57,062 nucleotides of DNA from Prorocentrum cordatum (lineage: Eukaryota). The DNA lies in NCBI GenBank assembly GCA_963575745.1, contig CAUYUJ010000049.1, forward strand, positions 62,001-119,062. The letters are read 5' to 3'. This document shows positions 28,463 through 49,307 of the stretch, piece by piece. Made by a program: the position numbers and the translations under genes. The first letter of the stretch is position 1; each line of letters opens with the position of its first letter. Below the pieces are notes generated by a model. It was not told the DNA's origin and did not search any database. It worked only from the letters and a program-made list of their open reading frames with translations.

Positions 28463-31106
28463 ATGGGCGGCGGCTCGCGCGAGTCCAAGGCCAAGGCCAA
28501 GGGTGGCAAGGCTAAGAAGAGGAGCGCTGCGCAGCCCGCCAGGCCCGTTGATAATGAGAGGGGCGCGAAAGCAGGGACCGACCATGCCTTGCTGAACGCG
28601 CGCGCGAGAATTTCTGCGCCACGCGCCGCCAGGGGGCCCACGGCTACGAGAAAGACGTGGAGGGGGAGGCCGAGTACCTCTGGTGGCCGAAGCTCGAGCT
28701 CTCCAATACCACGCAGCTGTGGACGCCCGTGGGGGAGGAGTGCGGGAAGTGCGCATGCGTCAGAGGTCGCCACTACTTGAAGGGAACGAGCCAGGAGGAG
28801 CTCAACGAGAATATAAAGGACGGTGGGGAGGAAGCTGAACGACACTGCCGACTTCGAAAGGACCGTGCCACAGGAACCAACGCGCTGCAGGCGTCCGAGA
28901 GCGTCAACGTAAAGGCCGAAACCACCAAGCAGCTAGAGAGTTACAACGACGCGTTCGAGGAGGGTCACTTCCACGATCTTGTTCAGTTTGCCTGTGACCG
29001 CAACCTCCGCTTTCCAGATCAGGAGTCCCTCATTAAGCACATCGAGGAGCAGATGCAGTACGAGGTCGGGTTTGGGGGGGCGGGCGTCCTCGGGGCGTTT
29101 GTGACTGAGATGCCACGTGGCGCCCAGTGCAAATTCAGTCGCGGGATGAAGCGCAGCGCCCTGCGCAGGGAGGTCGAGGGGCACGCCGACGCGGATGGCG
29201 CCAAGGATCGCCACGCCGAGAACGTTGAGGTGGATGGCTTGGCGGCGGGGGGCGACTCGGCCGAGCAGCACTTGCAGGACAGGCAGGACTTCGATGCAGA
29301 GGAACCTTCGCCATCCCCTCCTGTCGGCTTCATGGCGGGGTTCACCACCTCCGCCGCTGGCGCTGCGTCCACGGTGGGATCGGAGGACATCGCGAGCGTG
29401 GCGTCGTCTGTCATTGGTTGCCGTAGCAGAGGCCCAGCACCTCCCCTCTTTGCTTCGAAGACCCGCCATGCGCCAACTTCGATTCGGGCAACCCCGTCCA
29501 CATCAGCGCCAGGTACATCGCCAGGGATCTCCGAGGCGCAGCCGCCCCCGAAGAAGAAGGGCCGTCGCAGCAGCGCGGCGGGAAGCCCAGCCGCGAACAC
29601 CGTCGAGTCGGGGCGAGCGCTGCTCGAAGGGGCCGAGACGGCCTTCCAGCTGTCGGCAATCTGGAACAAAACGTTCAGGCCCCGCGACTTCGAGAACATG
29701 CTCACGATATTGTCGGCCAAAGCTTCGAAGGTGGCTGCTGTGCCGGGCGAGCCTGGCCCGTCTGAGGAATCCGAACTCCTCTTCAACATGAGCGCGAAGC
29801 TCGAGGAGAGCCGCAGCACATACAGGAGCTGAAGGATGCGCCAATGAAGGCAGTCGATAACCCCAGCGATATCCTTGCGATCTTGACGAAAGCAGACGTC
29901 ACCACACAAGCGAACATGCTGAGCACCACGTCGTTCAACCTGATGTCGCTCGGCATTGACGGCATGGTCGCCGCTCTCAAGGTGGCGAAGGACCTTGGGG
30001 GCGCAAGCTTTTCGGTCGGCGCGCTCACTGGCGCAGGGGACCTCGACGAGTTGAAGGCCACCGCGCAGACGAACATGATCTCCAGCTCCGTGGGGAAGTC
30101 TTTGAAGCGTATGTCCGAGGCAGACTACTCAAATATGATGCTCCAATGCGACACCTTGATTGGCCCCGTTGACGTCGGCAGCTTGGACGTCCAGGTTCCT
30201 GCCGTGAGCGAGTCCACTGGGCGGCTGCCTCAGGTGCTGTTCGGCCTCGACGCGATGCGCCTGTTCGGCAAGATCCGGGGGCTCGACTCGTCGGAGGCTT
30301 CCGCAGGATCTGCGAGTGCAAGCTGTCAAATTGGACTCCACCAAACACATGTTGAGCAACGGGCTTCGCTGTCTCATCAGGGTCAGCGGGGGGGCAGGCA
30401 GCAGCGCCAAGGCTGCCTGGGACTGCATCGCGAAACAAGATGTCGGGTCGGAGATCGGGCCGCTCGCATTTTCCGTCGAGGAGTCTTTGAAGCAGTTCAC
30501 GTCTGAGATCGGGGGGGCCCTCACAAGGATGGACAATGGGGCCGCCGTGGAGCAACTGTGCACTTCCCTCGTGAAGGCCGCTGAGGGCGAAGGCAACGAC
30601 ATCGACCTGTTCTCGAAGTACGTAGACACGCTCGACGACGACGAGGACAAGATCGGCCAGAAGAACGTCGAGCTGCTGAAATTGCGCGACGAGTTCATCT
30701 CGACGACTTGCGCTGCCATGTCGGCGGTGCTTTCCCACTACGGTAACTTCTCAGCGTACGCGAACGTCATCATGGCCAACAACTTGTCGTACTCGTCCCC
30801 AGGCCCCTCGTTGTGTGAATGGTGGAGGGGTGGAGGCGCGGCTGAAATGATATGCCAGAGTATCCTTTCTGGGAGGAGGGCGAGGATGATAAGAAAGAGG
30901 ATGGAGGGGGGATAGAGGGGGGAAGAGAATCGGTGAGGGGGGGGAGGATAGGAGGATGAGGGCGAGGATGAGGAGGGAGAAGAGGGCCAGGGCGAGGAGG
31001 ATGAGGAAAGACAAGGGGGACGAGGAGGATGCGGATGAGGAAAAACAGTCGGAGTAGGAGAGGCGGATAACATTATGGATAAATGGGGGGGCAGTGCGGC
31101 AGAGGG

Positions 31107-31138
<32 letters not shown>

Positions 31139-47693: not shown

Positions 47694-47885
47694 GCGACTG
47701 TCGGCCGACAGTTCGGCTTGCGCGCCAAATCCCGTTGCGTCGGCGTGCGTGTCAAAATGATGTTTTATTAGATTTCGTGTTGCGTCCGCGTTGGTCGCGC
47801 GTAGCGCAGCCGCTCCACGTGCGCTCGGCAGACAAGGCTCGGCGGCAGAAGGATTGCTTGGCGCGCGCCGACCGTCGAAACGGCA

Positions 47886-49307
47886 ATGGCCGGGCACGCC
47901 GCTTCCATGCGAGTCTTCCTGGAGAGAGCCGCAGGCCCTGGCAGGCACGACGCGGCGTGGTTCGATGCGATCGCGGCGGCGCTCGCTGCCGAAAGCGCAT
48001 CGCGCCCGTCCGCGCTCGCTGGGGCCAAATTCAGAGACTTCCAGCTCCTGGGAGCGGACCTCGACGGCGGCCAAAAGCGGTGCATTCGGGAAGCTATCGC
48101 ACTCGCGACAAGCGTTCAGGATCGCGCATTTCGCGCCGCGAACCAGCTGCATCGCGCCCGCGCGCGCGCAGGAGGTGGAAGACCAAGTCCAGAGGCCAGC
48201 GCCGACGCGGGCGCAAGCCGCCGGGGGCGTTGCCGTCGAAGCTCCCCTCGAGTCAAAGGCTGCGGAGGCGCAGGGGGCCCGCGCGCCGCAGTGCGGCGGG
48301 GGCCCGCGCGCGGAGCTCCGCAATCTTCGCCGGCGGCTCGACGGCGAGGAAGGCCCAGTGTGCGTCGCTGAGTGGCTGTCTTTGGCGCGCGCATCGGCCC
48401 TCCTGGGCGCATGCCCGCGCTCCATCGCCTCTTTCAAGAGCGGCGTGGCAGCATGGTTCGCGTTCGCGCGCGAGGCTCTTGCGCTGCGCGGGCGCGAGCT
48501 GCCGCCGTCCGCTGACGGGTTGCTCGCGTGGTCGCTGCTGTTTCGCTCCGACTAGACTTTTTCCAAGTATGTCTCTCAAGTCAAGCTGGCTTGTCAGGTT
48601 TGCGGTCTCCCTGTAGACGTTTTTCGTGACGCGCCCCTTCGCCGTGCAAAATGGGCGATTCGCGAGCGCGGCGCTTTCCTGCCCAGGGCGCCTCTATTCA
48701 TCAGGGAGGGCGCAGTTTGCGCGCTGCTAAATCTGGCAAAAGAGCGGCACGAGTCCGCCGTCTTCGCGCAGCTCTTTCTTGTCACGTACGTGTTTCTCTT
48801 GCGCCTTCCCTCGGAGGCCCTGGGCATTTCGTTCGACGGCGTAGCCTTTCGTCAGGGCGCAGGGGCTTCACTCATTCTGTGCGACGGCCTCCTGCAGCTC
48901 AAATTGGCGCGCCGCAAGAACAGCAAATTCGGGTCCGTGCTCCAGCGGGCGTGCTGGTGCGCGCGCTGCACCAAGACGCGCCCGGTCCACGCGCTCGGCG
49001 CATGGTTCGCGGGCCTGCCCGTGGGCCCCCGGCCGTTCGCGGACATTAGCGCGGCAAGCTCGCTGAGCACGCTGCGCTTTCTCCTCGGCCAGCTCGGCGC
49101 CAAAGACGCGGCGCTCTATCGCACGCGCGACCTGCGGCGCGGGCACGCACTGGACCTCCAGCAGAGGGGGGGGCACCTTGCGCGAGATCCTTCGAGCGGG
49201 CGAATGGCCCTCGCCCGCGCTCCTGTCGCATCTCGATATGACGCAACTAGAACTCGGCGCCGTGGTCGAGGGGCACCTGGCTGAGTCCGAGGACGAACTT
49301 GCCTAAG
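47886..49307 (+). pseudogene. Tyrosine recombinase (stop at 48553, frameshifts)
   Basis: FLLRLPSEAL (R), RRKN (K), CWC, RDLRRGHA, then LREILRAGEWPSPALLSHLD in another frame. Confidence 0.85.

What the first reader, a model, noticed from the sequence alone, without database searches (positions are those of the whole stretch)
28590..49240. Decay signature is T>C / A>G (CpG-creating), the reverse of methyl-C deamination or RIP
Seen: codons at normally conserved positions differ from the expected residue by one T>C or A>G change. Examples: DNMT PC>PR (cgc 37727-37729), YR YLRP>HLRP, RT W>R (cgg 46642), D>G (ggc 46507), RNase H SDN>SGN (47406), CPVH>RPVH (48979), HDLRR>RDLRR (49126), catalytic Y>H (cat 49229), cargo CxxC>CATR (~28624). 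One repeat pair shows gcacac vs gcgcgc (36865 vs 37116). The ancestral states are inferred from family consensus. Known: dinoflagellates replace part of their thymine with 5-hydroxymethyluracil. Inference: a repeat-directed AT>GC mutational process, possibly linked to modified thymine or to biased conversion, may inactivate TEs and drive high GC.
Basis: partly seen in the sequence, partly recalled or inferred. Interest (0 to 1): 0.8.

Follow-up and report, generated by a model that had tools for sequence, protein, structure and literature searches.

The report
GC-biased decay of a dead retrotransposon
A broken copy of a tyrosine-recombinase retrotransposon lost key residues mostly through A/T-to-G/C changes, which fits a general drift towards G+C in this GC-rich sequence better than a new repeat-targeted mutation system.

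Summary
The core observation holds. A sister copy from a marine metagenome (L001) is 92.8% identical over window 45230-49756. A seventh example, Y>H in a second recombinase at 38482-38484, is confirmed against 27 homologs. Two examples could not be tested (the 'DNMT' PC>PR and the cargo CATR).

Replacement changes assigned to the window copy by outgroups are biased towards G+C. The strict set has 20 A/T-to-G/C (W>S) against 3 G/C-to-A/T (S>W). The nearest-outgroup set has 21 against 8. The opportunity share for W>S is 0.39. In up to 79 relatives scored the same way, W>S is only 38% of such deviations.

The specific interpretation fails:
- The bias affects transversions as much as transitions.
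- It creates CpG only at the chance rate (6 of 20).
- It shows no clustering and no strand bias.
- The intact copy is already as CpG-rich (673 against 683) and as GC-rich.
- The dead copy also carries S>W hits, a C>T stop codon and frameshifts.

The best reading is that replacement sites, once freed from selection, drift towards the element's silent-site GC (0.78). Whether the process is specific to repeats, and whether the base calls are correct, could not be tested.

The parts
45230..49756 (+). Dead copy of a DIRS-like (reverse transcriptase / RNase H / tyrosine recombinase) retrotransposon. It lacks all but the tail of the first ORF. GC 0.68.
   Evidence: 92.8% identical to L001 2561-7098, with 305 mismatches and 13 indel events. 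Only the last 38 aa of L001 ORF1 are found, at 44847-44960.
45271..46995 (+). Reverse-transcriptase reading frame of the dead copy. It carries D>G at 46507-46509 and W>R at 46642-46644. The frame is lost near 46942, where one base is missing relative to L001.
   Evidence: 1993 homologs at E<=1e-3. Alignment to 150 of them. Codon table. Indel list.
46950..47693 (+). RNase H-like reading frame. It carries D>G at 47406-47408 (WSDNVG in L001, WSGNVG here).
   Evidence: RT_RNaseH is only a weak Pfam match: E 1e-4 on homolog P0026 and 0.17 on L001.
47805..49303 (+). Tyrosine-recombinase gene in pieces. Stop codon TAG at 48553-48555 (CAG in L001). C>R at 48979-48981, H>R at 49126-49128, an extra G at about 49166 (frameshift), and Y>H at 49229-49231.
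   Evidence: tblastn pieces. Alignment A1. Codon table. Indels. The profile of A1 matches the Cre recombinase C-terminus at E 0.003.
37852..38817 (-). Second, unrelated tyrosine-recombinase ORF (YR2), GC3 0.91. Y>H at 38482-38484, Y>R at 38161-38163, and also G>E and G>D.
   Evidence: 27 homologs. Alignment A2 of 19 of them. Count over all 27. GC3.
37442..37939 (-). GTPRSYFS, with CGC at 37727-37729). The family is not established.
   Evidence: No Pfam match even at E<=10. PDB hits are chance only. No homolog. In the atlas the nearest named cluster is DNA_methylase at only 0.83. The fold has pLDDT 37.
40242..44565 (-). Copia-like element next door, with much lower silent-site GC (GC4 0.53-0.57). 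It has an 896-aa ORF, one in-frame stop at 42933-42935, and an upstream ORF in another frame.
   Evidence: RVT_2 at E 6e-8, 33 bits against a cut-off of 31.6. ORF table. GC by codon position.
28558..32657 (+). 'Cargo' ORFs of unknown family (GC3 0.68-0.78). The CATR codons lie at 28615-28626, with CGC at 28624-28626.
   Evidence: No Pfam match. No relative in viral contigs.
36782..37127 (.). Direct repeat pair, 95 nt each, 251 nt apart, 92% identical. It is the source of the GCACAC/GCGCGC example.
   Evidence: Family D18. The 8 differences are listed.

Best explanation
The finding lies in a patch of dead mobile elements. The copy at 45230-49756 is an inactivated DIRS-like retrotransposon. Its family is unusually GC-rich even when intact: silent sites are about 78% G+C, and CpG and GpC are both above expectation. 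After this copy lost function, its first and second codon positions were no longer held at lower GC by selection on the protein. They began to drift towards the silent-site composition. That gives about three or more A/T-to-G/C changes for every change the other way, and some of them hit catalytic residues (W, C, D, H, Y becoming R, G, H).

The driver is a general preference for G+C in what mutates or what becomes fixed. It acts on transitions and transversions alike, so GC-biased gene conversion or a broad GC mutation pressure is the likely cause. It is not hypermutation aimed at repeats.

Shown here: the changes are derived, they are biased in direction, and they lack CpG, strand or cluster signatures. 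Inferred: the cause is general rather than specific to mobile elements.
For: Intact sister copy:
- L001 has a 776-aa RT-RNase H ORF and a 499-aa recombinase ORF. It carries the canonical residues.

Polarised replacement changes:
- Strict set: window lineage 20 W>S, 3 S>W, 2 neutral, in 22 codons.
- Nearest outgroups: window lineage 21 W>S, 8 S>W, 5 neutral, in 29 codons. L001 lineage: 0 W>S, 2 S>W, 5 neutral, in 6 codons.
- The opportunity share of W>S at 334 conserved codons is 0.39.

Fit to the silent-site model:
- L001 GC3 is 0.77-0.78 and GC4 is 0.77-0.79.
- These predict a W>S share of 0.69.
- 21 of 29 fits (p = 0.45), and 32 of 40 pooled with YR2 fits (p = 0.10).

Method control:
- At conserved columns the other relatives deviate 296 W>S against 495 S>W in the recombinase (79 loci). 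In pol they deviate 199 against 325 (31 loci). That is 38% W>S.
- L001 shows 3 against 5.5 and 6 against 8.
- The window shows 10.5 against 4 and 22.5 against 10.5 (P = 1e-5).

Second dead element:
- YR2 shows 13 W>S against 4 S>W (12 against 4 without the artefactual first column).

No targeting signatures:
- W>S transversions 5 against 0 S>W transversions (P = 0.009).
- Transition share 15 of 20 against 0.73 expected.
- CpG-creating 6 of 20 against 0.33 expected.
- Median spacing 81 nt against 80 simulated.
- T>C 9 against A>G 6.
- CpG 683 against 673, and GpC 745 against 720.

The active lineage is itself GC-shifted:
- GC is 0.68 against a median of 0.54 in 80 loci.
- G/A/R/P residues are 0.40 against 0.30.

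Synonymous differences show no asymmetry, 34 against 45, as expected for sites already at equilibrium.
Against: - The strict set (20 of 23) slightly exceeds the 0.69 expectation (p = 0.048). The bias may therefore be stronger than silent sites imply.
- Silent-site GC differs widely among neighbouring elements: Copia-like GC4 0.53-0.57, DIRS-like 0.77-0.79, YR2 0.90. There is no single regional equilibrium, and a family-specific process is not excluded.
- No neutral sequence outside mobile elements could be polarised, so 'general' is an inference.
- Only 22-30 of the 212 differing codons could be polarised.
- The whole-pair asymmetry is mild, 134 against 107 (p = 0.09).
- T>C/A>G changes lie in TA or TC context in 10 of 15 cases against 0.49 expected (p = 0.20). 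This is the direction a modified-thymine cause would predict.
- The window's base calls could not be checked against reads.
Confidence: 0.55

Rival explanations
1. A repeat- or element-directed AT>GC mutation process. Thymine in silenced elements is converted to 5-hydroxymethyluracil, which is misread or misrepaired as C. Marked elements would then accumulate T>C/A>G, lose function and become GC-rich.
For: - The direction bias is real and may exceed the silent-site expectation (20 of 23, p = 0.048).
- Both recombinase-encoding elements are far more GC-rich than the Copia-like neighbour.
- T>C/A>G changes are in TA/TC context in 10 of 15 cases against 0.49 expected.
- Passages of PMC11572971 report 5hmU enriched at repeats in Amphidinium carterae and cite a preference for TA and TC.
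Against: - W>S transversions are as biased as transitions (5 against 0, P = 0.009).
- The transition share equals the background.
- There is no clustering and no strand bias.
- The intact, presumably active copy has the same GC, CpG and GC3.
- The context test is not significant (p = 0.20).
In the passages of PMC11572971 shown by the term search (12 of 16 places), 'mutation' refers only to an engineered enzyme variant, and 'mispair' does not occur in the text.
Confidence: 0.12
2. Base-calling or assembly artefact. The window-specific T>C/A>G differences and the 1-nt indels would be systematic errors, for example at modified bases or homopolymers in long reads, and not real mutations.
For: - Several of the 13 indels sit in short homopolymer runs, such as the G-run at about 49166 and the C-run at about 47535.
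- The best public run holds only 0.22 of the sampled words of 40242-49284.
Against: - The window copy also differs by many S>W changes and transversions (107 weak-for-strong sites, 133 transversions). It also has a CAG>TAG stop. Such a mixed spectrum is not what a single systematic miscall would give.
- About 7% divergence from L001 is far above assembly error.
- The second element (YR2) shows the same bias against distant homologs.
Confidence: 0.08
3. Editing of the RNA intermediate (adenosine deamination) before reverse transcription, so that the copy was already damaged when it inserted.
For: A>G changes are frequent: 6 of 25 in the strict set.
Against: - T>C on the coding strand is at least as common as A>G (9 against 6).
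- There is no clustering.
- W>S transversions are also in excess.
Confidence: 0.03
4. Ascertainment artefact. Conserved motif residues use AT-rich codons and the reader picked examples, so any deviation looks like AT>GC.
For:
- Y, N, W, C and D codons can mostly change only towards GC.
Against: - The bias remains after correcting for opportunity (share 0.39; P = 3e-6).
- The same scoring gives 38% W>S in up to 79 relatives and 40% in L001.
Confidence: 0.04

Closest known systems
GC-biased gene conversion, or compositional drift of inactive sequence towards a GC-rich equilibrium
   Same: There is an excess of W>S over S>W substitutions affecting transitions and transversions alike. It has no CpG, strand or cluster signature. 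It is visible once purifying selection is lifted. Passages of the review PMC9099904 state that gene conversion could shape the composition of inserted elements and that mutation spectra should be compared.
   Different: No link to recombination could be tested. Neighbouring elements have very different silent-site GC. Mutation bias and fixation bias cannot be separated here.
RIP in fungi and methyl-cytosine deamination of silenced repeats
   Same: Both leave a directional point-mutation footprint in inactive repeat copies.
   Different: The direction is opposite. There is no CpG or CpA depletion (CpG o/e 0.9-1.3), no hypermutation clusters, and no evidence that duplication triggers it.
DIRS-like retrotransposons of dinoflagellates (SymbioDIRS; PMC5890265, passages read)
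   Same: The Pol ORF (RT then RNase H) is followed by a separate tyrosine-recombinase ORF. The reverse transcriptase is too divergent for Pfam, as that paper reports for Symbiodinium DIRS elements.
   Different: No DNMT domain is seen in the L001 or window pol. The terminal-repeat arrangement is not resolved. The host is unknown, and GC is far higher than in most relatives.
5hmU marking of repeats in dinoflagellates (PMC11572971; abstract and passages read)
   Different: That work reports silencing, not mutagenesis. In the passages shown, 'mutation' refers only to an engineered enzyme variant, and 'mispair' does not occur in the text. Here the bias is not limited to T>C/A>G.

Membership tests
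DIRS-like (tyrosine-recombinase) retrotransposon | Reverse transcriptase domain | tested here: inconclusive
   RVT_1 matches are all below the 29.6-bit cut-off: E 0.003 on L001 pol, and E 0.0036 and 7e-5 on 2 of the 7 pol homologs scanned (10 proteins in that call, the other 3 being recombinase homologs). The profile of A3 finds no PDB reverse transcriptase. The atlas places L001 pol next to an RVT_1 cluster at 0.94, which is a lead only. A VDD motif is conserved in the family (RYVDD in the consensus, RFVDD in L001 and the window); its meaning as RT motif C is recalled.
DIRS-like (tyrosine-recombinase) retrotransposon | Tyrosine recombinase instead of a DDE integrase, in a separate ORF after Pol | tested here: met
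   L001 ORF 5138-6637 follows the pol ORF. The profile of A1 matches the Cre recombinase C-terminal region at E 0.003; 17 of the 18 PDB hits are Cre or Tre. Phage_integrase reaches only E 0.09. R..H-x-x-R..Y-like conserved columns are seen in A1; their meaning as the catalytic set is recalled.
DIRS-like (tyrosine-recombinase) retrotransposon | Split or inverted terminal repeats (A-coding-B-A-B arrangement, as described in PMC5890265) | tested here: inconclusive
   Only a 117-nt direct pair at 49496-49612 / 50083-50199 (93%) and a 48-nt motif before each ORF were found. L001 runs to the end of its contig, and the window copy lacks most of the 5' part.
RIP / methyl-C deamination footprint | C>T (G>A) excess with CpG (or CpA) depletion in repeat copies | tested here: not met
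   CpG o/e is 1.30 in the element and 0.9-1.1 around it. Polarised S>W changes are 3 of 25. Transition differences at CpG sites: the window keeps CpG where L001 has TpG/CpA at 41 sites, and the reverse holds at 29.
GC-biased gene conversion-like substitution bias | W>S excess in both transitions and transversions, independent of CpG context | tested here: met
   W>S 20 against S>W 3. W>S transversions 5 against 0. CpG creation at the chance rate.
GC-biased gene conversion-like substitution bias | Association with recombination rate, and an excess of W>S alleles at high frequency | not testable with these tools
   No genome, map or population data are held.
Editing-type hypermutation (deaminase on RNA or cDNA) | Clustered, strand-specific changes of one type | tested here: not met
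   Median spacing 81 nt against 80 simulated. T>C 9 against A>G 6.
C5 cytosine methyltransferase (frame 37442-37939, minus strand) | Match to the DNA_methylase family, or a methyltransferase fold with motifs I and IV | tested here: inconclusive
   No Pfam match at E<=10. No PDB match. No homolog. Atlas score 0.83 only. The model has pLDDT 37 and is unusable. The FSGPG and PR(C) motif likeness is a reading, not a test.
Ty1/Copia retrotransposon (40242-42932, minus strand) | RVT_2 reverse transcriptase | tested here: met
   PF07727 at E 6e-8, 33 bits, above the 31.6-bit cut-off.

The most novel reading that the evidence does not exclude
The GC-ward bias is stronger than silent sites predict and is aimed at particular silenced element families. 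Thymine modification (5hmU) on marked retrotransposons would then act as a slow mutagen that erodes A/T-rich catalytic codons and raises element GC. This would be a mirror image of RIP.
Probability: 0.1. Interest if true: 0.8.

Novelty: new member of a known kind. Interest (0 to 1): 0.3.

Why it matters
If the bias is general, this is a clean small example of how a GC-favouring substitution process erodes a dead gene. Replacement sites relax towards silent-site composition, so catalytic W, C, D, H and Y codons turn into R, G and H codons. That is useful for dating and modelling mobile-element decay in GC-rich protist genomes. It also cautions against reading such changes as a special defence. 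It would matter far more if a genome-wide comparison showed the bias to be confined to elements carrying a thymine mark.

Tried and rejected
- Whole genome: none is held.
- Earlier findings: none.
- Sequencing-run search: the best holder has only 0.22 of the sampled words, and the rest are marine metagenomes with small shares. None were laid, so nothing is concluded from them.
- A third close DNA copy for polarising synonymous and non-coding sites: none among the 80 loci by blastn.
- Viral contigs gave nothing for the cargo ORF, the DNMT-like frame, the Copia-like ORF or the pol profile.
- DNMT-like frame. Nothing was found in:
  - Pfam
  - PDB
  - the word-index homolog search at near lengths only; longer and shorter forms were not searched
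  - the atlas
  - a single-sequence fold, pLDDT 37, so no fold search was made
- Profiles of YR2 (A2) and pol (A3) against PDB: no meaningful hit.
- Pfam on 33 further ORFs of the window: 0 families.
- Rfam and tRNA scans: nothing.
- Repeats within the window were too few or only two-copy, so they could not be polarised.
- Rejected ideas:
  - CpG-specific creation
  - a transition-only chemistry
  - clustered hypermutation
  - pure ascertainment bias
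Full report
WHAT IS THERE

The stretch 28.6-49.3 kb has 53-71% G+C. No Pfam-recognisable host gene was found among the 12 ORFs and 33 further ORFs scanned. It holds these features:
- ORFs of unknown family at 28558-32657.
- A (TCA)n array at 35.5-36.5 kb.
- A 95-nt repeat pair at 36782/37033.
- A tyrosine-recombinase ORF (YR2) at 37852-38817 on the minus strand.
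- A Copia-like element at 40242-44565 on the minus strand (RVT_2 at E 6e-8, above the cut-off).
- At 45230-49756, a reverse transcriptase, an RNase H-like part and a second tyrosine recombinase on the plus strand. These are broken by frameshifts and a stop codon.

Pfam does not recognise the last element directly, but the family is large and real:
- The RT frame has 1993 homologs at E<=1e-3.
- The recombinase frame has 12 homologs.
- The profile of the recombinase alignment matches the C-terminal part of Cre at E 0.003.
- There are weak RVT_1, RT_RNaseH and Phage_integrase matches, all below their cut-offs.

Passages of PMC5890265 say that dinoflagellate DIRS reverse transcriptases fit Pfam poorly. 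That agrees with what is seen here.

THE KEY RESOURCE: AN INTACT SISTER COPY

A scan of metagenome contigs with the recombinase alignment matched 420 stretches. Of these, 149 encoded relatives and 80 were kept.
- One locus, L001, is 92.8% identical in DNA to window 45230-49756, with 305 mismatches and 13 indel events.
- No other locus is similar at the DNA level.
- L001 is intact, with a 776-aa RT-RNase H ORF and a 499-aa recombinase ORF.
- The window copy lacks L001's first ORF except for its last 38 residues.
- The window copy has lost one base near 46942 and gained a G near 49166. It has TAG where L001 has CAG at 48553.

CHECKING THE EXAMPLES

The positions are 46507, 46642, 47406, 48979, 49126 and 49229.
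- The YLRP>HLRP example is in YR2 at 38482-38484. Homologs have Y in 22 of 23.
- The 'DNMT' example could not be judged. No family could be established for that frame by Pfam, PDB, homolog search, atlas, viral contigs or a fold.
- The cargo example could not be judged either, because no homolog was found in viral contigs, the one collection searched.
- The repeat pair cannot be polarised, and its 8 differences go in both directions.

IS THERE A DIRECTIONAL SIGNATURE?

Taken as a whole pair, the asymmetry is mild.
- The window has G/C where L001 has A/T at 134 sites, and the reverse at 107 (p = 0.09).
- There are 172 transitions and 133 transversions.

Among the 212 differing codons, 93 are synonymous and 119 are not. 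Written as L001 to window:
- Synonymous differences show no excess: W>S 34, S>W 45.
- Non-synonymous differences do: W>S 62, S>W 39.

I polarised the non-synonymous differences with outgroup proteins. The strict rule was that at least 10 outgroup residues are present, at least half of them agree with L001, and at most 10% agree with the window. Columns failing the rule were dropped.
- This assigns 22 codons to the window lineage, with 20 W>S, 3 S>W and 2 neutral changes. By type they are T>C 9, A>G 6, T>G 3, A>C 2, C>T 3 and C>G 2.
- Only 1 codon is assigned to L001.

Using only the two nearest outgroups gives a similar picture:
- Window lineage: 29 codons with 21 W>S, 8 S>W and 5 neutral.
- L001 lineage: 6 codons with 0 W>S, 2 S>W and 5 neutral.

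The share of possible replacement changes that are W>S at the 334 conserved codons is 0.39. So 20 of 23 has P = 3e-6.

I also ran a control for the method. Deviations from the family majority at conserved columns were scored in the same way in all relatives.
- Recombinase: 296 W>S against 495 S>W in 79 loci.
- Pol: 199 against 325 in 31 loci. Together these are 38% W>S, which is the opportunity share.
- L001 scores 3 against 5.5 and 6 against 8.
- The window scores 10.5 against 4 and 22.5 against 10.5 (P = 1e-5 against 0.376).

The second dead element, YR2, gives 13 against 4 (12 against 4 without an artefactual first column). Its ancestral states come from distant homologs only.

The GC-ward bias is therefore real and is not a product of example picking.

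WHAT KIND OF PROCESS?

- CpG is created by 6 of the 20 W>S changes, against 0.32-0.33 expected.
- The dead copy has 683 CpG and 745 GpC. The intact copy has 673 and 720. CpG richness (o/e 1.30, with GpC at 1.41) is therefore a property of the live element and not of decay.
- Transitions are 15 of the 20 W>S changes, the share expected at a background kappa of 3 (0.73).
- W>S transversions outnumber S>W transversions 5 to 0 (P = 0.009).
- The changes are not clustered (median spacing 81 nt against 80 simulated).
- They are not strand-biased (T>C 9, A>G 6).
- TA/TC context is reported in PMC11572971 passages as preferred for 5hmU. It holds 10 of 15 T>C/A>G changes against 0.49 expected (p = 0.20). 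This is suggestive at most.

BEST READING

The intact copy has GC1/2/3 of about 0.70/0.53/0.78 and fourfold-site GC of 0.77-0.79.
- If silent sites reflect the balance of W>S and S>W rates, a sequence freed from selection should show a W>S share of 0.69 among replacement changes.
- 21 of 29 fits this (p = 0.45), as does the pooled 32 of 40 (p = 0.10).
- The strict 20 of 23 is borderline high (p = 0.048).

The active lineage has itself been shaped by the same pressure.
- Its GC is 0.68 against a median of 0.54 in the 80 loci.
- GC-rich amino acids make up 0.40 of its recombinase against 0.30 in relatives.

The simplest account is relaxation of replacement sites towards a GC-rich equilibrium, under gene conversion or a broad GC mutation pressure. 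Review passages (PMC9099904) note that such effects on inserted elements are expected but little tested.

WHAT ARGUES AGAINST THIS READING, AND WHAT IS OPEN

- Silent-site GC differs strongly among neighbours: Copia-like 0.53-0.57, DIRS-like 0.77-0.79, YR2 0.90. The pressure is therefore not visibly uniform, and a family-specific process remains possible.
- No sequence outside mobile elements could be polarised.
- The base calls of the window could not be checked.
- The 5hmU literature read here reports silencing of repeats, not mutagenesis (abstract and passages only).

VERDICT

A repeat-directed or thymine-modification mechanism is not supported by the tests possible here. This is a new instance of a known kind of compositional drift. 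Interest is modest unless a genome-wide comparison shows the bias to be specific to mobile elements.

Noticed in passing
L001 1-7098 (metagenome contig): This is an intact element of the same family. A 775-aa first ORF runs open from the contig start. Its N-terminal third is built of roughly 95-130-nt tandem repeats and it has no Pfam match. It is followed by pol (776 aa) and a recombinase (499 aa).
   Followed up: partly
window 45369-45391 and 47705-47727; L001 2699-2746 and 5037-5084: A conserved motif of about 48 nt (75% identical within L001) lies at the start of the pol ORF and again just before the recombinase ORF. It may be a shared expression or processing signal. It was not examined further.
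   Followed up: no
window 37860-37940, minus strand: The C-terminal tail of the YR2 frame is conserved in distant homologs (P0163, P0164, P0170). It overlaps, in another frame, the start of the FSGPG-containing frame. This suggests two overlapping reading frames or a programmed frameshift in this element family.
   Followed up: no
window 40242-44565, minus strand: The Copia-like element has an 896-aa ORF. A single in-frame stop at 42933-42935 and a frame change near 43438-43637 separate it from upstream ORFs. Its fourfold-site GC (0.53-0.57) is far below that of its neighbours.
   Followed up: partly
window 1-666 and 2929-3594: This direct repeat pair is 98% identical and may be an LTR pair. 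Of its 13 differences, 12 are transitions. They are split 7 against 6 in direction.
   Followed up: partly
window 11470-12448 and 13184-14167: A segment of about 1 kb is duplicated 1.7 kb apart at 81% identity. Related pieces of about 185 nt lie at 12441-13015 and 33669-33891.
   Followed up: no
window 9112-11410, 35463-36653, 50203-50800: These are very long simple-sequence arrays. They are GCGT/GT-rich, (TCA)n, and (GT)n followed by a 225-nt G-rich run. They give spurious long ORFs.
   Followed up: no
window 16620-19391 (+), 5988-7691 (-), 2104-3672 (-), 14873-16417 (+): These long open frames (515-924 aa) have no Pfam family. Their GC3 of 0.54-0.65 is lower than in the recombinase elements. 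Their nature is unknown.
   Followed up: partly
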